From: Candidatus Doudnabacteria bacterium
Lineage (GTDB): Bacteria; Patescibacteriota; Doudnabacteria; UBA920
Direction: 5' to 3'
DNA: 64,000 nt
Assembly (NCBI GenBank): GCA_003151625.1
Contig: PLYC01000020.1
Coordinates: 28,981-92,980 of the forward strand
Positions 1-61,886 of the stretch are shown here, one piece after another. The position numbers and the translations under genes were made by a program. Each line of letters begins with the position of its first letter. The stretch's first letter is position 1. The notes under the pieces were generated by a model, which did no database searches, was not told where the DNA came from, and saw only the letters and a list, made by a program, of their open reading frames with translations.

Positions 1-1054
1 ACTTACTTGCTTCGCGAAAGGCGTTAAAACCAGGAAAATGATTATATAGCCATTGATACACATAAGGAAATGGATCGCCAGCTTGTTTACCTAAAAAAAC
101 ACCTAATAGTGCAACACAACCAAAAAATAATACATTTTTATTCTTTCTGTTCAAAATTAATCCTAAAAAAGCAAAAAAAGGTATCAGGAAAAAATATAAC
201 GGAATCGGTTGTACTATAAAATCAGTGGTGTAGGATCCCGTCCAAGTATAAAAAAACAATGTTGTAGATTTCAATATATCAAAAAATGAGTCACCAAATA
301 AGGTTCTATTAAACAATTCATTACTTGTTATTGCATGCTGAAACAATAGCGGTACTAACCAATACAAATTAATAGCAATAAAAACCAGAATTGAAATTAT
401 TAGAAGAAAAAACGTATTTTTTTTAATCCTATTTATAAAAAGATGATAGTATACAACATACAGAGAAATTATACATAAACTTATATAAGTTATTCTAAAA
501 TCATAAGCAGAAGAAAAAAATAAAAAAAATAAGCAATAAATTAAATTATTTCCCCTGTCCTCTTTAAAAAATCTTAATAAAAAATAAAAAGATAGGGCCG
601 CCATTCCAAAGGCACAAAATAATGGAATGGAATTAGATGCCAACACGTCAACATTAAGCAAAAAGACTAATCCAGCGGCTAGTGCTGCAATTCTGGATTT
701 AAAAAGATATAGGACTATTAAATAGGCGCCGAAAAATAATGAAAAAACCATCGGGAAAAAAAACAACAATCTTTCAGTAATATTAAAATCAAGTTTAAAA
801 ATATTATGTAGAAATTGTTCAGCTGCGTTTAACGGAGCATACGTTAATGTTAAATTGGATGATCCGGTCGAGACATTAGCACTCCATGCTCCCCTAGAAG
901 AAAAAAAAGTGGATTGCAATTCTCTATTATAATAACCCCAGTCACCCTGACTAAGTATTCCAAAACTAAAAAACCAAGTATGAAATATTAAGACTAGAAA
1001 CGCAATAAGTATTGCATACCAATATTTAGAAACTAACCTACTAATTACTTTCAT
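1..1054 (-). CDS. polytopic membrane protein, 3' end runs off the window (possible Wzy-type polymerase or other glycan-related membrane protein); start ATG at complement of 1052-1054
   Basis: Manual reverse-complement translation from 1054 gives MKVISRLVSKYWYAILIAFLVLIFHTWFFSFGILSQGDWGYYNRELQSTFF... with no in-frame stop toward position 1; very hydrophobic, many predicted TM segments; absent from the ORF track presumably because it has no stop inside the window. Immediately downstream of the minus-strand glycan operon. Confidence 0.4.
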   Translation of the reverse strand, partial: MKVISRLVSKYWYAILIAFLVLIFHTWFFSFGILSQGDWGYYNRELQSTFFSSRGAWSANVSTGSSNLTLTYAPLNAAEQFLHNIFKLDFNITERLLFFFPMVFSLFFGAYLIVLYLFKSRIAALAAGLVFLLNVDVLASNSIPLFCAFGMAALSFYFLLRFFKEDRGNNLIYCLFFLFFSSAYDFRITYISLCIISLYVVYYHLFINRIKKNTFFLLIISILVFIAINLYWLVPLLFQHAITSNELFNRTLFGDSFFDILKSTTLFFYTWTGSYTTDFIVQPIPLYFFLIPFFAFLGLILNRKNKNVLFFGCVALLGVFLGKQAGDPFPYVYQWLYNHFPGFNAFREASK

Positions 1055-56743: not shown

Positions 56744-56820
56744 GACCTCGTAGCTCATTTGGATAGAGCGCTTGGCTTCGAACCAAGAGGCAGCAAGTTC
56801 GAATCTTGCCGAGGTCACCA
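56744..56820 (+). tRNA. tRNA-Arg (anticodon UCG), CCA encoded
   Basis: GACCTCG acceptor stem pairs CGAGGTC; D-arm GCTC..GAGC; anticodon arm CTTGG-CTTCGAA-CCAAG (UCG); T-arm GCAAG-TTCGAAT-CTTGC; 3' ACCA. Confidence 0.85.
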
Positions 56821-56932: not shown

Positions 56933-57008
56933 GGGTTGGTAGCTCAGTTGGTAGAGCAGCGGACTCTTAATCCGCTTGTCGAGGGTTCGATCCCCTCCCA
57001 ACCCACCA
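56933..57008 (+). tRNA. tRNA-Lys (anticodon CUU), CCA encoded
   Basis: GGGTTGG/CCAACCC acceptor; anticodon arm GCGGA-CTCTTAA-TCCGC (CUU); T-arm GAGGG-TTCGATC-CCCTC; 3' ACCA. Confidence 0.85.
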
Positions 57009-58515
57009 AGATATTACACAAAGGAATTTTTCCAACTTTCCCAAGGGCTGCGCTTAGCGCAGCCCATTGTGTTTGTGGGGTGAATTCAATTTTTTGATTT
57101 TTTAAAAACAGGTGCGAGCCGAAGATTTTTTGTGCAGCGGATTTTTTGGGGTGCAGTTCGGGCGAAAGCGTTATTTCGCCCAAGTTTTGTGCGTCTTTTA
57201 AGAAGTTTTTGAGAGGTGCGAGCCAAGCGTTCTGCTTTTGTTCCAAGCGGGCTATTTGCTCCGTGAGCGTCTTTTTTTCTAAGGTTAGTTTGTTCTTCTC
57301 CTGTCTGTACTTTTCAGGATCAATATCCTGTTCTAAGTAGCCCTGAAACAGGCGATCCTGCTTGCGGTCAATGTCTTGTATTTTTAACCGCAAGTCCTGG
57401 ACAAAAACCGCGGTGGTTTGCAAGGCTTTATCCTTGTCCCTGTCAGCCATAGCTTCCAACTCCTTGCCCCACTCTTTAGGCATAATAAAGCTTTTAAGGA
57501 CACTAGACAACTGCTTGTCCAGTTCCTCTGATCTGATATGTAGCTGGGAACAGGTAGTGTTTTTTTTGGTACAACGGTAATACAGATAGTGGTGGACATT
57601 ACCATTTTTTTGATGTTTGGTCTTAGTTTCAGCGGTAATGCTCCTGCCGCACTCCCCGCAGTGAAATAGGCCGCATAAGGGTTTCGGGTCACTGACTTGG
57701 CGGCTGGCTTTACCCCGCTGTTTTAAGACTTCCTGTACTTGATCAAATAGTTGCTTGGTAACAATGGGCTGATGTTTGCCTTGGTGGAGTTCCCCGCCAT
57801 ACCGGAACAAGCCACAATAAAAAGGATTGGATAAAATATAACAGGCTTGGTCACGCTTCATGGAATTACCGCCCGCGCTTTGCCAACGCATGGTGGCTTT
57901 GGTTTCAATCCCATTGGCAAAAAAGAATGTAGCTATATCTTCCAAGCTATATCGGCTCTCGGCATACCGTTCAAAGGCTTGTTTGACTATTGGTGCTGTA
58001 TTTTTATCCAGGGTTATAGTCTTGCTCCGTAAGTCATTAAAATAACCCAAAGGAGCAAGACCCGGGTATTCCCCGCGCTTAGCTTTTTGGTAAAGTCCTC
58101 GCTTGGTGTTAGTGCTTAGATCGCGGACGTACTGATTGGCTATGCCGAATTCAACGTTCATGAGCATGACGTTATCGTTAGAGTAATAGCCGCGTTCAGG
58201 AGTTTGAATATGCTTTACAGTTCCTTCCTGTAACAACCATTCAATCTGGGCTGCGTCCACGGGATTGCGGGCTAGCCTATCTAATTTCCAGCAGATAATC
58301 CCAAGAGCCTCACCCTTTTGTATGCGGGCAAGCATATCGGCAAAGGCAGGGCGGCCCGGCCGTTTGGCTGATTGTTTTTCGATAAATTCAGCGGAAATGG
58401 TTAATCCTTGCTCTTTTGCCAGCAATCTTAAAACAGCAAGCTGGTCTTCTATTGACCGGACTTGCTTGTCTTCCACGTCAGTGGATTTACGGGCGTATAA
58501 AAAGTAATTCGACAT
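56944..58515 (-). CDS. large serine recombinase (resolvase/invertase catalytic domain + recombinase + zinc-ribbon/coiled-coil domains)
   Basis: 523 aa; N-terminal YARKSTDVEDKQVRSIEDQ (catalytic Ser region), ICWKLDRLARN, Cys cluster CGLFHCGECG...C; the last ~25 codons run antisense through tRNA-Lys (..GIEPSTSGLRVRCSTN), so the true 3' end is uncertain. Confidence 0.8.
   Translation of the reverse strand: MSNYFLYARKSTDVEDKQVRSIEDQLAVLRLLAKEQGLTISAEFIEKQSAKRPGRPAFADMLARIQKGEALGIICWKLDRLARNPVDAAQIEWLLQEGTVKHIQTPERGYYSNDNVMLMNVEFGIANQYVRDLSTNTKRGLYQKAKRGEYPGLAPLGYFNDLRSKTITLDKNTAPIVKQAFERYAESRYSLEDIATFFFANGIETKATMRWQSAGGNSMKRDQACYILSNPFYCGLFRYGGELHQGKHQPIVTKQLFDQVQEVLKQRGKASRQVSDPKPLCGLFHCGECGRSITAETKTKHQKNGNVHHYLYYRCTKKNTTCSQLHIRSEELDKQLSSVLKSFIMPKEWGKELEAMADRDKDKALQTTAVFVQDLRLKIQDIDRKQDRLFQGYLEQDIDPEKYRQEKNKLTLEKKTLTEQIARLEQKQNAWLAPLKNFLKDAQNLGEITLSPELHPKKSAAQKIFGSHLFLKNQKIEFTPQTQWAALSAALGKVGKIPLCNILVGWEGIEPSTSGLRVRCSTN
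57044..57064 (+). terminator. stem-loop GGGCTGCGC-tta-GCGCAGCCC downstream of the tRNA pair
   Basis: Perfect 9-bp GC-rich stem followed by ATTGTGTTTGTGG. Confidence 0.4.
57090..57150. repeat. 61-bp inverted repeat, left copy (inside the 3' region of the recombinase ORF)
   Basis: TTTTTGATTTTTTAAAAACAGGTGCGAGCCGAAGATTTTTTGTGCAGCGGATTTTTTGGGG is the exact reverse complement of 60844-60904. Confidence 0.85.
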
Positions 58516-58518
58516 TTT

Positions 58519-59145
58519 TTAAAATTCTTTCCTTAAAACCCCAATAACTTTCCCCTGTACCTCAACATTTTTTTCATAAAATGGTTTCATGGTCTTGTTA
58601 GCAGGAACAAGCTTAATACGATTTTTTTCGTGGAAAATCTTTTTGAGAGTAACGGAGTTTTGGTCTGGTAAATAAGCAACTGCCTTTTCCCCGTCATTAA
58701 CTGTTGACTGCTCGCGGACAATAACGACATCCCCGTCAGAAATTCCCTCCTCAATCATACTCGTGCCTGACACTTTCAAGGCGTAATGGTTAGCTCCTCT
58801 TGAGAGCATACTACGCGGCACTTCTATTGGTTCGGGGTTCCTGATTACCTCAATTGGCCCACCGGCGGCAATAAGACCCATAAGTGGTATCTCTACTAAA
58901 TCGCCCTTGCGGTCATTGAAGGCTTGGATTGAGCGCCTCCTGCCCTTATGAAAGGCGAGAAGCTTCTTTTTGCGTAAATAGGAAACATGCTGGTGAACCG
59001 TTGGAATGGAAATATCAAAATTGTTGGCAATTTCACCAAGAGAAGGGGCATAGCCTTTTTCTCTTTGAAATTTTATGATAAATTCTAAAATTTCGGCCTG
59101 TCTTTTCGATGGCTTGATTGTCCAAATACTTGACTGATTTTCCAT
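58519..59145 (-). CDS. lexA: LexA/CI-type repressor (HTH + S24 peptidase domain)
   Basis: 208 aa; HTH APSLGEIANNFDISIPTVHQHVSYLRKKKLL; cleavage-site-like IPLMGLIAAGGPIE (Ala-Gly); S24 motifs GTSMIEEGISDGDVVIV and K in VTLKK; 3-bp gap to recombinase gene (operon). Confidence 0.75.
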   Translation of the reverse strand: MENQSSIWTIKPSKRQAEILEFIIKFQREKGYAPSLGEIANNFDISIPTVHQHVSYLRKKKLLAFHKGRRRSIQAFNDRKGDLVEIPLMGLIAAGGPIEVIRNPEPIEVPRSMLSRGANHYALKVSGTSMIEEGISDGDVVIVREQSTVNDGEKAVAYLPDQNSVTLKKIFHEKNRIKLVPANKTMKPFYEKNVEVQGKVIGVLRKEF

Positions 59146-59244
59146 AATGGTATTATACTACCTAAAGATAACCTAAACAAGTGTGCGTTATCCACAATGC
59201 ATAAAAAGCTAATTTGGATAAAAAATTAATTTTTTAAACTATAT

Positions 59245-60300
59245 ATGGCATACGAAGTTGACTATCTTCCCGTAGGGGAAGGACAAAGATCCGGGGACGC
59301 AATAGTTTTGCGGTTTGGTAATTTTACCGGCCCCAGAGACCAGCAATATATCATTGTTATAGACGGCGGGTACAAGGAGTCTGGCGAGGCTCTGGTTAAG
59401 CATATTAACTATTACTATGGAACCAATGAAGTAAACTTAGTGATTTCCACACACCCTGACATAGACCATGCGTCAGGCCTGTGTAGCATTCTCGAAAATA
59501 TGGATGTTAAAGAGCTGTGGATGCATAAACCTTGGGAACATGCCCAGGACATAAAGAACTTTTTCAAAAATGGCCAAATTACCGCCTCCGGTCTTCAAGA
59601 AAAAATTGAAAAATCGCTCCAATATGCCAGCGACTTGGACTCTATAGCCCAAAAAAAGCGCATACCAATTTTTGAACCTTTCCAAGGCCTCAATGCTGGA
59701 GGTGTTATCCAAGTCCTTGGCCCTTCAAAAGATTACTATCAAAATTTATTACCGCACCTCAAGGATATGCCAGCACCGAAACCATCCCTCGGCATATTTG
59801 CTCCGCTCATCAAAAAAGCAGAGGAAGCGGTCGAATGGATAGAGGATAATATGAACGTGGATTTGCTAAATGACGATGATGATGCAACCTCCGCCAGCAA
59901 CAACACGAGCACGATTATTCTCTTTAATCTCGACGGGCACAAACTCCTTTTTACAGGGGACGCGGGTAAAACCGCTTTGTTCAATGCCATCACATACGCG
60001 GAAAGCCTGCCAACCCCAATTCTGCTTTCCGACCTCCATTTTCTAGATGTTCCCCATCACGGGAGCAAGCGCAATATCAGTAGCAAAATTTTGAGAAAAA
60101 TCAAAACCCAGACCGCCTTCGTTTCCGCCCCAAAAGATTCGGATAAGCACCCCGCCAAAAAGACCACCAACGCCCTGCAAAAGCACGGCGCATATGTTTT
60201 TGTAACCCGCGGAACGTCATTACTACAGCATAACCAAGGAAACGCGCGTGGCTGGGGCAATGCTCAAGCTGAACCGTTTCACCCTAAGGTAGAAGTATAA
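59245..60300 (+). CDS. metallo-beta-lactamase-fold hydrolase
   Basis: 351 aa; ISTHPDIDHASGL (HxDxDH-type motif), later DVPHHGS. Confidence 0.7.
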   Translation: MAYEVDYLPVGEGQRSGDAIVLRFGNFTGPRDQQYIIVIDGGYKESGEALVKHINYYYGTNEVNLVISTHPDIDHASGLCSILENMDVKELWMHKPWEHAQDIKNFFKNGQITASGLQEKIEKSLQYASDLDSIAQKKRIPIFEPFQGLNAGGVIQVLGPSKDYYQNLLPHLKDMPAPKPSLGIFAPLIKKAEEAVEWIEDNMNVDLLNDDDDATSASNNTSTIILFNLDGHKLLFTGDAGKTALFNAITYAESLPTPILLSDLHFLDVPHHGSKRNISSKILRKIKTQTAFVSAPKDSDKHPAKKTTNALQKHGAYVFVTRGTSLLQHNQGNARGWGNAQAEPFHPKVEV

Positions 60301-60303
60301 AAT

Positions 60304-60795
60304 ATGAAGGAGCTATTAGATAAACTAACGTCCTACAACCTTTTTAATTACCTCCTGCCCGGAGTGTTATTTGTTACACTTTCGGGCAAACTTTCAGCCA
60401 ACTCCTTGACTCTAGGTGACGCTATGGTCGGGGCTTTCGTCTGCTACTTTATTGGTTTAATAATCAGCCGATTCGGCTCGCTTATTATTGGGCCGACACT
60501 AAAAAAAATTTCTTTTGTAAAATTTACCGGCTACTCGGCTTACGTTTCCGCCTCCAAACAGGATCCAACCCTCGAAACCCTCTCGGAGGTAAATAATATG
60601 TACCGGACACTAAGTTCAATGCTTGTCCTTTTAGCATTATTTAAATTTTATGAATGGATTGAGCTACAGCTACCCGGCCTAAAGGCATGGAATAATTACA
60701 TTCTCATCGCACTGCTCTTAATTCTTTTTCTATATTCTTATAGAAAGCAAACCCAGTTTATTACAAATAGAATTAAAGCAAATAACGGACAATAA
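60304..60795 (+). CDS. small integral membrane protein (hypothetical)
   Basis: 163 aa, 4 hydrophobic helices. Confidence 0.4.
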   Translation: MKELLDKLTSYNLFNYLLPGVLFVTLSGKLSANSLTLGDAMVGAFVCYFIGLIISRFGSLIIGPTLKKISFVKFTGYSAYVSASKQDPTLETLSEVNNMYRTLSSMLVLLALFKFYEWIELQLPGLKAWNNYILIALLLILFLYSYRKQTQFITNRIKANNGQ

Positions 60796-60842
60796 ATTTT
60801 TTAATTTTGTTTCCCATGCGTCTTGCGTTCTGCGCCCTGCGT

Positions 60843-60905
60843 CCCCCAAAAAATCCGCTGCACAAAAAATCTTCGGCTCGCACCTGTTTTTAAAAAATCA
60901 AAAAC
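60843..60905. repeat. 61-bp inverted repeat, right copy, abutting the holA start codon; preceded by four TGCG(T) heptad repeats (60816-60843)
   Basis: CCCCAAAAAATCCGCTGCACAAAAAATCTTCGGCTCGCACCTGTTTTTAAAAAATCAAAAA; ATG of holA at 60906. Confidence 0.85.
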
Positions 60906-61886
60906 ATGATTACCCTGCTTTTAGGTTCAGACGACTTTTCCAAGAAAAATTTTATAGACGCTCTCGTTTTAAACAAGGGGGCGTTTTTATCCGTGTTTTC
61001 TGAAGCCACCGAAATTCCGGAAACCGGCGCCCTTTTGGAATCGGACTTGTTTTCCAAACCCAAGGTTTTTGTTTTGCAAAATATAATGCCGGATTTTGGG
61101 TCTGTGAATTTGGAGAAGTGTATTTTAACCCTAAATCAAATTGTAATTTCCCTAAAGTCCCTGGACAAAAGAAAGAAAGAAAACAAGGAACTGCTCTCAA
61201 ATCCAAAAATTACTGTAAAAGAATTTTCTTTGCCGCACGGCAGGGAGTTGGACAAGTGGATACAAAACCGCGTTTCTTTTTACAAGGGTAAAATTTCGCA
61301 AAACGCGACCGAAGCTTTGGCTGTCCGTTTGGGTCGGGATAACGGCAAGGAAACCAAAGTCGCAGGCAAGGTTATAGCCGTGGAAGAAGTTTTTGATTTG
61401 TGGCAGGCGGACAGCGAAATCCAAAAGCTTTTGGCCTTTGCAGAAGGAGGGGAAATTAGCCGCCAGGCAGTTTTGGATTTGGTCCCGGAGAACGCGGAAG
61501 TGGATGTATTTGATTTAACCAATGCCATTGCCGATAATCAAAAACAAAAAACTATGGAACTTTTGGGGCGTTTTTTAAAAGAGCAAACCGGCGGTGACGA
61601 GAAGGGCTCCATAATCCAGTTAAACGCCTTGCTTGGCGAGCAGTTTCGCAATGTAGCCATAGTTCAAGATTTTATGGCCGTAAAAAAACCCGAAAATGAA
61701 ATTTTGGACGCTACTGGTTGGAAACCAGGCAGGTTGTTTGTAATGAAAAAAATTGCCTCGCGTTTTCCCGCGAAAAAAATTATCGATCTGCTTAACAAAC
61801 TGGAAGCCCTGGATGAAGAACTAAAAAGTTCCAGCATCCCTCCCAGGGTATTGCTAGATTTAATTTTATCGCAACTATTTATTTAA
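60906..61886 (+). CDS. holA: DNA polymerase III delta subunit-like (HolA)
   Basis: 326 aa; LLLGSDDFSKKNFIDAL N-terminus and overall length typical of delta subunit; moderate confidence. Confidence 0.5.
   Translation: MITLLLGSDDFSKKNFIDALVLNKGAFLSVFSEATEIPETGALLESDLFSKPKVFVLQNIMPDFGSVNLEKCILTLNQIVISLKSLDKRKKENKELLSNPKITVKEFSLPHGRELDKWIQNRVSFYKGKISQNATEALAVRLGRDNGKETKVAGKVIAVEEVFDLWQADSEIQKLLAFAEGGEISRQAVLDLVPENAEVDVFDLTNAIADNQKQKTMELLGRFLKEQTGGDEKGSIIQLNALLGEQFRNVAIVQDFMAVKKPENEILDATGWKPGRLFVMKKIASRFPAKKIIDLLNKLEALDEELKSSSIPPRVLLDLILSQLFI

What the first reader, a model, noticed from the sequence alone, without database searches (positions are those of the whole stretch)
56933..60905. tRNA-Lys-adjacent island: serine recombinase + LexA/CI repressor + MBL hydrolase bounded by perfect 61-bp inverted repeats
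Seen in sequence: the large serine recombinase ORF (56944-58515, minus strand) reads antisense through the 3' part of tRNA-Lys. It forms an operon with a LexA/CI-type S24 repressor (3-bp gap). A 61-bp sequence at 57090-57150 is exactly repeated, inverted, at 60844-60904 directly before the holA ATG. Four TGCG(T) heptads (60816-60843) sit next to the right copy.

Established knowledge: integrases overlapping tRNA 3' ends mark integrative elements; repressor-recombinase operons give SOS-inducible excision. Serine recombinases invert DNA between inverted sites.

Inference: either an integrated mobile element with unusually long terminal inverted repeats, or a roughly 3.7-kb invertible segment (including its own recombinase) that could toggle expression of holA and the flanking region. 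The left inverted-repeat copy lies inside the recombinase coding sequence, which is unusual.
Basis: partly seen in the sequence, partly recalled or inferred. Interest (0 to 1): 0.72.

Follow-up and report, generated by a model that had tools for sequence, protein, structure and literature searches.

The report
Decayed tRNA-targeting serine-integrase island
The 61-bp inverted repeat is real, but it is what remains of a feature shared by a very large family of mobile elements in tiny "CPR" bacteria: they insert at the very end of tRNA genes and carry a second, flipped copy of their own attachment site. This particular copy has lost the parts it would need to move or flip.

Summary
A 61-nt exact inverted repeat (66 nt at 97%) lies at 57091-57151 and 60844-60904. 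It encloses a large serine recombinase (LSR), LexA, an MBL protein and a 163-aa membrane protein, between tRNA-Lys and holA.

A relative with the same synteny has tRNA-Lys followed 257 bp later by holA, so 57009-60905 is an insertion that begins right after the tRNA's CCA.

The repeat is not a pair of transposon ends or hix-like sites. In 55 of 67 related loci, all from Patescibacteria, the last ~141 nt of the LSR gene ("S") recur inverted upstream. S ends 3-5 nt inside a tRNA gene (14 amino-acid types). The inverted copy continues into a conserved 15-codon tail and stop ("T'"). Nine long contigs show attL, attR and an internal inverted attP sharing a 3-5-nt core.

The window's right arm is the inner 61-66 nt of that internal copy, cut off at the holA ATG. 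The core, T' and attL are absent. The island is therefore most likely stranded; LSR-driven inversion is unlikely, and RecA-driven inversion is possible but untested.

The cargo is a PADLOC candidate defence pair (PDC-M48) and a lexA cassette. The family architecture looks undescribed in the literature I could search.

The parts
56933..57008 (+). tRNA-Lys(ctt), the integration target. Its acceptor/T-arm 3' half is the attB-derived half-site (Z) of attR.
   Evidence: ARAGORN and Rfam tRNA at 74 bits. Homology with the empty-site relative L084 runs through CCACCA and then stops.
57004..57008 (.). Inferred crossover core: CACCA on the + strand, TGGTG in LSR sense. This is the CCA, the discriminator base and position 72 of the tRNA.
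   Evidence: In related loci the S arm ends 5 nt (30 loci) or 3 nt (7 loci) inside the tRNA. The same 3-5 nt are shared by attR, the internal attP copy and attL in 9 long contigs.
57009..57151 (-). Complete copy of 'S': the last ~143 nt of element-encoded LSR coding sequence, forming the attP-type arm of attR.
   Evidence: Repeat detection. Alignment with L022, L088, L089 and L164. The family median arm length is 141 nt.
57045..57065 (+). Conserved 9-bp hairpin inside S that encodes WAALSAAL on the other strand. It is terminator-like for tRNA-Lys.
   Evidence: Terminator-like hit in the scan. RNAalifold on 32 loci: all 6 scored pairs show compensatory changes.
56944..58515 (-). Large serine recombinase, 523 aa. 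The last 19 residues (GWEGIEPSTSGLRVRCSTN) are read-through of antisense tRNA-Lys and replace the family's native 15-aa tail.
   Evidence: Pfam Resolvase/Recombinase/Zn_ribbon_recom; PHROG 95 integrase; PDB A118 and SPbeta integrases; alignment of tails.
58519..59145 (-). LexA, 208 aa, 3 nt upstream of the LSR. Ala94-Gly95, Ser129 and Lys168/169 are all present.
   Evidence: TIGR00498 equivalog at 153 bits against a cut-off of 111; Pfam; motif inspection.
59152..59192 (-). lexA promoter with a candidate LexA operator: TATAAT at 59152-59157, TTGTTT at 59175-59180, and the palindrome GATAAC-N14-GTTATC at 59167-59192.
   Evidence: Almost identical to the region upstream of lexA in 8 lexA-vsr-dcm loci from other CPR bacteria; coordinates. 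Operator function is inferred.
59245..60300 (+). MBL-fold protein matching PADLOC candidate defence protein PDC-M48B.
   Evidence: PADLOC PDLC04676, 4.7e-80, full length; Pfam Lactamase_B.
60304..60795 (+). 163-aa membrane protein matching PADLOC PDC-M48A, the partner of the MBL protein.
   Evidence: PADLOC PDLC04670, 1.2e-61, full length. The MBL/163-aa pair recurs 10 nt apart in 18 of 40 unrelated metagenome loci, none with an LSR.
60817..60844 (+). Four TGCGTCC heptads at the inner edge of the right arm. This is an expansion of a 2-unit motif (TGCGTTC TGCGTCC) found at the same place in relatives.
   Evidence: TRF; L022 and L164 site-2 copies.
60844..60904 (+). Right arm: the inner 61 nt of the internal inverted copy of S (family 'site 2', the attP copy). 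It is truncated; the outer ~78 nt of S, the core and T' are missing.
   Evidence: Repeat detection. Homology to the complete site 2 of L164 (93.5% over 60828-60904) and of L022 ends at 60904.
60906..61886 (+). holA (DNA polymerase III delta), a full-length host gene that marks the right border of the island.
   Evidence: Pfam DNA_pol3_delta_C. Nearly all of the 120 listed homologues are 322-345 aa and cover 97-100% of the query. Synteny in L083 and L084.

Best explanation
Region 57009-60905 is a stranded remnant of an integrative element from a very large Patescibacteria (CPR) family driven by a large serine integrase.

In this family the attP site lies inside the integrase gene itself. It has the form S-core-T', where S is the last ~140 coding nt before the core and T' encodes a conserved ~15-aa tail plus the stop codon. 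The attB site is the extreme 3' end of a tRNA gene: the core corresponds to the CCA, the discriminator and position 72, and the T-arm serves as the outer half-site. Integration therefore joins the integrase body and S to the tRNA, so the ORF runs on antisense through the tRNA, exactly as seen here. T' is moved to the far end of the element, where it forms attL.

The elements also carry a second, inverted and nearly identical copy of the attP region (S-core-T') upstream of the integrase. That copy is the source of the 'inverted repeat with one arm inside the recombinase gene'.

In this window the internal copy has been cut 61-66 nt into S and fused to the holA start codon. The cause was probably an illegitimate deletion that also removed the core, T', any distal cargo and attL. 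What remains is attR, an intact integrase, a lexA cassette that now fronts the integrase, and a two-gene candidate defence module (PDC-M48).

The insertion, the family architecture and the truncation are shown by the data. It is inferred that the integrase has no partner site left, so the island can neither excise nor be inverted by its own enzyme. Only RecA-type recombination over 61 bp could still flip it. It is also inferred that holA is now transcribed by read-through from the island or from a cryptic promoter in the arm.
For: Insertion. L084 has pilB...pilO-p106-tRNA-Arg-tRNA-Lys(ctt), then 257 bp, then holA-typA-AI2E-G6PD, with no island. The window/L084 alignment breaks immediately after CCACCA.

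Family architecture.
- Of 67 GTDB loci with a complete LSR 3' end, 57 have a convergent tRNA (14 amino-acid identities) and 55 have an inverted upstream copy of the LSR 3' end. The median arm is 141 nt, median identity 97%, and median span 2.6 kb.
- The arm ends 5 nt (30 loci) or 3 nt (7 loci) inside the tRNA.
- The inverted copy continues into a conserved coding tail (..ILV-x-LYNxARTYFxxNS*).
- About 10% of homologous proteins end in that tail, and more than 69% end in tRNA-antisense G[IF]EP.
- Nine long contigs show Y-core-T', inverted S-core-T' and S-core-tRNA sharing a 3-5-nt core.
- In the genome of the 90%-identical relative, attL (99% identical T') lies about 40 kb away, next to a terminator-like former tRNA flank.

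att logic. The TCGAAC motif is 4 nt farther from the core in T' than in the tRNA (offset 17 against 13). This parallels the roughly 5-bp shift of the ZD motif between attP and attB reported in PMC3783163.

Mobility. LSRs at least 90% identical abut six or more different tRNAs, or T'.

Truncation. The right arm is orthologous to site 2 of L022 and L164, with the same heptads at its inner edge. Homology stops at 60904, and no T' exists in the window or in the ~8 kb of contig beyond the window's right end.

Other points. holA is full length. The integrase type is supported.
Against: - The 61 nt are 100% identical between arms, although the nearest relative's LSR is only 85% identical at the DNA level. 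Either the arms are still exchanging sequence (by conversion or inversion) or the truncation is recent. I cannot tell which.
- A deletion endpoint within 1-2 nt of an essential gene's ATG is an improbable coincidence and is unexplained.
- The integrase ORF is fully intact, with every family-invariant residue present. That is unexpected for a long-dead element.
- No read-level data were available, so orientation heterogeneity is untested.
- The exact crossover dinucleotide and the activity of the enzyme are inferred, not measured.
Confidence: 0.8

Rival explanations
1. The segment is an active invertible switch. The 3.7-kb segment 57152-60843 flips between the two arms, driven either by the LSR at a site inside the 61 bp or by RecA. 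The flip changes what is read into holA and swaps the recombinase C-terminus.
For: The arms are perfectly identical over 61 nt, which suits ongoing exchange. Family-wide, the arms stay about 97% identical, and L022-specific substitutions are present in both of its arms, which indicates concerted evolution. There is no predicted promoter or terminator between the 163-aa gene and holA, so orientation would change holA's upstream context. Some LSR homologues carry the alternative (T') tail.
Against: The family's recombination core lies at the tRNA-proximal end of S, and the right arm lacks it. The enzyme is an integrase-type LSR, not a 190-aa invertase, and such enzymes do not recombine other pairings of sites (PMC3783163 abstract). 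In the flipped state the LSR would be a 507-aa protein missing the conserved WAAL...ILV end, and that exact protein is not in the 15-billion-protein collection. Every contig on record shows a single arrangement. In the four GTDB loci from Microflora Danica ('MFD') or chromosome-level assemblies that I take to be long-read, the LSR is always joined to the tRNA.
Confidence: 0.1
2. The unit is a transposon or IS-like element whose ends are the two repeat arms (57086-60909). The serine recombinase would act as its transposase and the arms would be long terminal inverted repeats.
For: Minimal family members look like IR-LSR-IR units of about 1.7 kb (for example L037 and L076). Nearly identical LSRs occur at many different tRNAs.
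Against: The sequence outside the upstream arm (T') is conserved across loci, is in frame with the LSR, and ends in a stop codon, so it belongs to the element and not to the target. T' has its own second copy at the true left junction, next to host DNA. The three-site pattern with a shared core is what conservative attP x attB recombination leaves behind. In the window the right arm is a fragment, not an end.
Confidence: 0.05
3. The repeat is an assembly artefact, that is, a chimeric or fold-back join at a short repeat.
For: Many related contigs break at or near these repeats, which shows that assemblers struggle here.
Against: The assembler's k (141) exceeds the repeat length. Three contigs on record carry the LSR and holA proteins, with the unshown ones listed as similar. 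The closest relatives carry the orthologous second copy, with the same heptads. These include L022, from an 868-kb contig of a Microflora Danica ('MFD') assembly that I take to be long-read.
Confidence: 0.02

Closest known systems
Large serine integrases of phages and islands (A118/LI, SPbeta SprA, phiC31, Bxb1; CcrAB, XisF)
   Same: The domain order is the same: Resolvase, Recombinase, Zn-ribbon with a coiled-coil. There is a short shared core at attL, attR and attP. The outer motif sits farther out in the attP half-site than in the attB half-site, by 4 nt here against about 5 bp in LI integrase.
   Different: The target is the CCA end of many different tRNA genes rather than one protein-coding gene. 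attP lies inside the integrase's own last ~15 codons. An inverted, homogenised second copy of the attP region is carried inside the element. NCBIfam scores for XisF and CcrA/B/C are far below their cut-offs.
Myxophage Mx8 IntP/IntX and SSV1-type integrases (attP inside the int gene, tRNA target). Recalled from my own knowledge, not checked here.
   Same: Integration at a tRNA gene alters or splits the integrase gene, so the integrated copy encodes a protein with a different C-terminus.
   Different: Those are tyrosine recombinases, and no internal inverted attP copy is known for them.
Hin/Gin-type invertible segments
   Same: A serine recombinase gene lies between inverted repeats.
   Different: Hin-type enzymes are about 190 aa, with a C-terminal HTH and 26-bp sites. 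Here the enzyme is a 523-aa integrase type and the repeats are about 140-nt copies of its coding end. The PHROG 'DNA invertase' match covers only residues 1-267 (catalytic domain and adjacent region), at 7e-19 against 8e-80 for 'integrase'.
Yeast 2-micron plasmid (FLP with 599-bp inverted repeats). Analogy from my own knowledge.
   Same: The inferred circular form would have two long inverted repeats, each containing the recombination site, dividing the circle into two unique segments.
   Different: The recombinase class is different (tyrosine). The 2-micron plasmid has a replicative role, whereas no replication genes are seen here. Flipping has not been demonstrated for these elements.
Tycheposons of Prochlorococcus (bioRxiv 10.1101/2020.12.28.424599)
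   Same: They are small cargo-carrying islands at tRNA genes in streamlined genomes, and a minority carry large serine recombinases.
   Different: 910 of 937 use tyrosine recombinases. The text I searched gives no description of attP inside the recombinase gene or of inverted attP duplicates.

Membership tests
Large serine recombinase (integrase type) | N-terminal resolvase catalytic domain with the nucleophilic serine | tested here: met
   PF00239 at 1.7e-21 over residues 5-149. The YxRxST motif (Y7 R9 K10 S11 T12) is invariant in 25 homologues.
Large serine recombinase (integrase type) | Recombinase domain, zinc-ribbon domain and a coiled-coil insert | tested here: met
   PF07508 and PF13408 both pass their cut-offs. 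There is a coiled-coil-like stretch at 364-455 (weak STAT_alpha hit). The best PDB matches are the A118 and SPbeta integrases.
Large serine recombinase (integrase type) | attP x attB recombination that leaves attL and attR with a shared short core | tested here: met
   Three-site pattern in 9 related loci. Empty site for this very locus. In the window itself only attR survives.
Large serine recombinase (integrase type) | The outer (ZD) motif is displaced outward in attP relative to attB | tested here: met
   The TCGAAC-like motif is at offset 13 in tRNA arms (37 of 48) and most often at 17 in T' (17 of 48; the T' pattern match was noisy, with 11 unmatched and 12 apparently spurious at offset 6). 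MAFFT inserts a 4-nt gap. The rule comes from PMC3783163. Protein-DNA contacts were not tested.
Large serine recombinase (integrase type) | A cognate recombination directionality factor for excision | not tested
   No candidate was identified, and RDFs have no universal signature.
Hin/Gin-type DNA invertase system | A small (~190 aa) serine recombinase with a C-terminal HTH, acting on short identical inverted sites | tested here: not met
   The protein is 523 aa with integrase-type C-terminal domains. The right arm lacks the family's crossover region.
LexA (TIGR00498) | Winged-helix LexA DNA-binding domain plus S24 autopeptidase with an Ala-Gly site and a Ser/Lys dyad | tested here: met
   Equivalog score of 153 bits against a cut-off of 111. 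A94-G95, S129 and K168/169 are present. Cleavage and operator binding were not testable here.
PADLOC candidate defence system PDC-M48 | Adjacent A (small membrane) and B (MBL-fold) genes that match both models | tested here: met
   B matches at 4.7e-80 and A at 1.2e-61, both full length and 3 nt apart. Anti-phage activity is only a candidate annotation and was not tested.
Integrative island at a tRNA gene | Presence or absence between conserved flanks, with one junction in the tRNA 3' end | tested here: met
   Comparison of L084 with the window.

The most novel reading that the evidence does not exclude
The repeat is the fossil of an undescribed, phylum-wide class of serine-integrase elements, with thousands of members in Patescibacteria. 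The proposal has four parts.
1. The elements integrate at the CCA end of essentially any tRNA gene, by reading the universal T-arm as the attB half-site.
2. Their attP site is embedded in the integrase's own last ~15 codons, so integration swaps the enzyme's C-terminal tail.
3. They obligatorily carry a second, inverted, sequence-homogenised attP region. This makes the element a two-segment 'flip-flop', like the 2-micron plasmid.
4. Flipping of the integrase segment, by RecA or by the integrase with a helper, restores the native-tailed enzyme and so re-arms an otherwise locked-in element.

Parts 1 to 3 are largely shown by my data. The functional role in part 4 is speculation.
Probability: 0.4. 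Interest if true: 0.8.

Novelty: new variant of a known kind. Interest (0 to 1): 0.6.

Why it matters
For this window the result is a clarification. The striking repeat is not a gene switch for the essential holA gene. It is the scar of a stranded island that delivered a candidate defence module and a lexA cassette.

The wider value lies in the family behind it. Serine integrases are prized genome-engineering tools because they need only short sites, and nearly all known ones target a single specific site. Here nearly identical enzymes sit at six or more different tRNA genes, apparently using the conserved T-arm and CCA end as their landing pad. The integrase gene is rewritten at its 3' end by the act of integration. 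That would give both a naturally multi-target integrase and a new way of coupling integrase activity to integration state.

These elements also appear to be a main source of contig breaks, tRNA-adjacent islands and local rearrangements in the tiny genomes of CPR bacteria, whose mobile elements are poorly known.

Tried and rejected
- A small protein encoded by the orphan S-T' copy, for example a directionality factor made from the integrase's own C-terminus. The frame is open for 39-172 aa, but there is no consistent start codon across 34 loci. Rejected.
- A known RNA family for the GC-rich hairpin next to site 2, or for S. Rfam returned nothing except tRNAs.
- A phage origin. IMG/VR has no relative closer than 37% identity.
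- Recovering the untruncated version of this particular island through its MBL cargo. The metagenome scan found only homologues at 66% identity or less, none with an LSR or LexA.
- A recurrent LexA-LSR operon. The five relatives whose upstream genes I inspected (L022, L088, L089, L091, L164) have a divergent XRE-type HTH instead, and LexA gave no tblastn hit in any of the 80 GTDB loci. Close lexA homologues sit in lexA-vsr-dcm cassettes. The pairing seen here is therefore a one-off.
- Exact look-up of the predicted flipped-state integrase. It is not in the collection, which is only weak negative evidence.
- Using T'-tailed proteins as proof of inversion. I rejected this as proof because a short-read assembler can mis-pair paths through a 140-nt inverted repeat. 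Only L089, whose arms are 77% identical, is safe from that problem.
- Literature searches for this architecture found nothing relevant.
- An LSR-mediated deletion to a pseudo-attB as the cause of the truncation. Rejected because the break is 78 nt away from the core.


Full report
**Observation**

The inverted repeat is real. The arms are 57086-57151 and 60844-60909 (66 nt, 97% complementary). The exact stretch is 57091-57151 against 60844-60904. There are two copies in the window where none is expected by chance. tRNA-Arg(tcg) lies at 56744-56820 and tRNA-Lys(ctt) at 56933-57008, both on the + strand.

- The 523-aa ORF 56944-58515 (-) has Resolvase, Recombinase and Zn_ribbon_recom domains and reads antisense through tRNA-Lys.
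- A LexA_DNA_bind + Peptidase_S24 ORF (58519-59145, -) ends 3 nt before it.
- An MBL-fold ORF (59245-60300, +) and a 163-aa ORF (60304-60795, +) follow.
- holA starts at 60906.

The four heptads are confirmed at 60817-60844 with consensus TGCGTCC. The source is a 140.8-kb MEGAHIT k141 contig, ENA ERZ27254241. Three contigs on record carry the LSR protein and three carry holA; one place is shown and the others are listed as similar and not shown. A 61-nt repeat is therefore not a k-mer artefact.

**It is an insertion**

holA homologues are nearly all 322-345 aa and cover 97-100% of the query, so holA here is full length. Two related Doudnabacteria contigs keep the flanking synteny: pilB-pilC-pilM-N-O-p106, then tRNA-Arg and tRNA-Lys, then holA-typA-AI2E-G6PD.

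In L084, tRNA-Lys(ctt) is followed after 257 bp by holA, with nothing in between. The alignment of the window with L084 is continuous through the tRNA up to CCACCA and breaks at the next base. On the other side, similarity resumes at the holA ATG. The island is therefore 57009-60905.

**The repeat is a family hallmark**

The recombinase has thousands of homologues at 50-90% identity; nearly all those that carry an organism name or come from named genomes are Patescibacteria. The C-terminal residues encoded by the left arm are conserved among them, and most proteins then end in ..G[IF]EP.., which is the antisense translation of a tRNA T-arm.

I fetched 80 GTDB loci. Among the 67 with a complete 3' end:
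- 57 have a convergent tRNA gene at the end of the LSR gene, covering 14 different amino-acid identities.
- 55 have the last part of the LSR gene repeated, inverted, upstream of the gene. The median arm is 141 nt (range 44-178), the median identity is 97%, and the median span is 2.6 kb (range 1.6-10.6 kb).

I call this repeated stretch S. S ends 5 nt (30 loci) or 3 nt (7 loci) inside the tRNA, that is, at the CCA, the discriminator and position 72.

The upstream inverted copy stops at the same nucleotides. Read in the LSR's frame, it then continues into a conserved ~15-codon tail with a true stop codon (..ILV-x-LYNxARTYFxxNS*). I call this continuation T'. About one in ten homologous proteins ends in that tail.

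**Three sites, one core**

Nine long contigs contain three related sites:
- S-core-tRNA at the end of the integrase gene.
- An inverted S-core-T' upstream of the integrase.
- A third site, Y-core-T', in direct orientation to the first, where Y is host DNA.

All three share a 3-5-nt core. This is the signature of conservative site-specific recombination: the first site is attR, the third is attL, and the middle one is an intact attP carried inside the element in inverted orientation.

In L070 and L076, Y is an 8-13-nt spacer followed by the next tRNA of a tRNA array. The genome of the closest relative (L022, 90% identical LSR, also at tRNA-Lys(ctt) in the same synteny) has its attL about 40 kb away, just upstream of holA. 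There T' is 99% identical and Y begins with a terminator-like hairpin, as a former tRNA 3' flank would.

**The sites look like serine-integrase sites**

T' contains a T-arm-like TCGAAC motif 4 nt farther from the core than the real T-arm motif in the tRNA. The offsets are 13 in tRNA arms (37 of 48 loci) and most often 17 in T' (17 of 48, from a noisy pattern match). For the A118-type LI integrase, the zinc-ribbon-domain motif occupies positions 16-24 in attP and is shifted about 5 bp toward the centre in attB (PMC3783163). The closest solved structures to this protein are the A118 and SPbeta integrases, and the best PHROG match is 'integrase'.

LSRs within clusters of at least 90% identity abut six or more different tRNAs, or T'. 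The family is therefore mobile and not specific to one tRNA.

**What the window has and what it lacks**

The left arm is the inner part of a complete S (57009-57151) joined through the core (57004-57008) to tRNA-Lys. This is a normal attR.

The right arm is orthologous to the internal attP copy of L022 and L164. It shares 93.5% identity with L164 over 60828-60904, and this region includes the heptads, which are present there as two units. Homology stops at 60904, one base before the holA ATG.

The outer ~78 nt of S, the core and T' are absent. No T'-like sequence exists anywhere in the window or in the ~8 kb of contig that L001 adds beyond the window's right end. There is only one LSR gene in the window. 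The internal site has therefore been truncated, and everything distal to it, including attL, has been lost. The junction shows only a 3-nt microhomology.

The integrase has no partner site left, so I infer that the island is immobile.

**Is it an invertible switch?**

I found no support for a switch driven by the recombinase, for four reasons:
- The crossover region is missing from the right arm.
- Serine integrases do not recombine non-cognate pairings of sites (PMC3783163 abstract).
- The flipped state would give a 507-aa LSR lacking the conserved WAAL..ILV end, and that exact protein is not in the 15-billion-protein collection.
- In the four GTDB loci from assemblies I take to be long-read, the LSR is joined to the tRNA.

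Homologous recombination over 61 identical bp remains possible. The perfect identity of the arms, set against 85% DNA identity to the nearest relative's LSR, hints at recent exchange or a recent truncation. Only read-level data can settle this.

T'-tailed proteins on short contigs do not prove inversion, because assemblers can mis-pair paths through a 140-nt inverted repeat. L089, whose two attP-like copies are only 77% identical, is a safe example of a native-tailed integrase with an inverted second copy.

**Cargo and consequences**

The MBL protein and the 163-aa membrane protein match PADLOC candidate defence system PDC-M48 (B at 4.7e-80, A at 1.2e-61, both full length). The pair recurs without any LSR in 18 of 40 metagenome loci.

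LexA passes the TIGR00498 equivalog cut-off and keeps the Ala-Gly site and the Ser/Lys dyad. Its close homologues are 80-87% identical across CPR classes and sit in lexA-vsr-dcm cassettes. The promoter, with a GATAAC-N14-GTTATC palindrome, is conserved in the window at 59152-59192.

The five relatives whose upstream genes I inspected carry a divergent XRE-type regulator instead, and none of the 80 GTDB loci has a LexA match. The lexA-LSR pairing is therefore peculiar to this island. DNA-damage-inducible expression of the integrase is plausible, but with no attL it could not lead to excision.

No sigma-70-like promoter or terminator is predicted between the 163-aa gene and holA. holA has lost its native upstream region and is probably read through from the island; this is an inference.

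S also contains a conserved 9-bp hairpin 38 nt after the tRNA end (window 57045-57065). It shows compensatory changes across 32 loci and probably replaces the displaced tRNA terminator.

**What remains unexplained**

I cannot say why the family keeps an inverted, near-identical copy of its attP region. I considered three ideas:
- Two interchangeable attP sites on a 2-micron-plasmid-like circle.
- A flip that restores the native-tailed integrase.
- An insulator or terminator function for the second copy.

None of these is tested. I found no description of this architecture in the searchable literature. That is absence of evidence within that library only.

**Verdict**

The feature is a degenerate member of an apparently undescribed variant of serine-integrase islands. 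The window's copy is ordinary in function, being a stranded island that carries defence cargo. The family architecture it reveals is the interesting part.

Noticed in passing
L011:490-549, L036:203-263, L005:6049-6109 and 27 other places in LSR loci; none in the window: A GC-rich hairpin with a conserved ~21-nt loop (GCGCACGGGAGGGTGGGGCAAG) and a 5-7-bp stem that covaries (for example TAACAC/GTGTTA, AGCCGC/GCGGCT, TTTTCC/GGAAAA). It usually sits at the inner edge of the inverted attP copy. No Rfam family matches it.
   Followed up: partly
window 57045-57065; same position in 32 related loci: A conserved 9-bp hairpin inside the integrase's coding 3' end, encoding WAALxAA. It lies 38 nt after the tRNA 3' end and shows compensatory changes in all 6 scored pairs. 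It is probably a substitute terminator for the tRNA.
   Followed up: partly
L083:7700-8000: In a 949-kb Doudnabacteria contig with the same synteny, tRNA-Lys(ctt) is inverted. An orphan remnant of S sits on its 3' side, and holA lies 55 bp from its 5' side. This is a different rearrangement at the same hot spot.
   Followed up: partly
L086:6416-7926: In the genome of the closest relative, attL lies about 1.3 kb upstream of holA. Between attL and holA lie an unrelated 238-aa LSR fragment and a decayed reverse-complement copy of LSR-3'-end-S-core-T' that ends about 75 nt before the holA start. This indicates repeated insertions and decay at this site.
   Followed up: partly
L116-L123 (lexA loci); window 59152-59192: LexA proteins 80-87% identical across different CPR classes lie in lexA-vsr-dcm-(putative REase)-HTH cassettes, mostly on short contigs. 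Their promoter and GATAAC-N14-GTTATC palindrome are nearly invariant. This LexA is far more conserved than housekeeping genes such as holA, which suggests the cassette is mobile.
   Followed up: partly
L066:3440-8145, L029:1712-9358, L070:4957-9477, L076:5499-9293: The cargo between the T' arms of other family members is varied. It includes a reverse transcriptase with Laminin_G and FGE-sulfatase-type proteins (which looks like a diversity-generating retroelement), a HaeII restriction enzyme, and LemA/DUF2207/RDD membrane proteins.
   Followed up: no
window 60817-60844; L022:8690-8710; L164:~280-300 (reverse strand): The four TGCGTCC heptads are an expansion of a two-unit motif (TGCGTTC TGCGTCC) found at the same place in the two closest relatives. 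The motif looks like diverged continuation of the integrase coding sequence (GAACTGCACCCC) rather than a binding array.
   Followed up: partly
L003-L082 (contig ends): Many contigs end about 50 nt (SPAdes) or about 137 nt (MEGAHIT k141) beyond the upstream arm, or inside it. The S and T' repeats are therefore a systematic cause of assembly breaks next to tRNA genes in CPR metagenome-assembled genomes.
   Followed up: no
window 59130-59159: A promoter-like site (TTGACT-18-TATACT, 10 of 12 matches) faces the PDC-M48 genes and overlaps the first codons of lexA. The defence pair and lexA-LSR are therefore divergently arranged around one ~100-bp control region.
   Followed up: no
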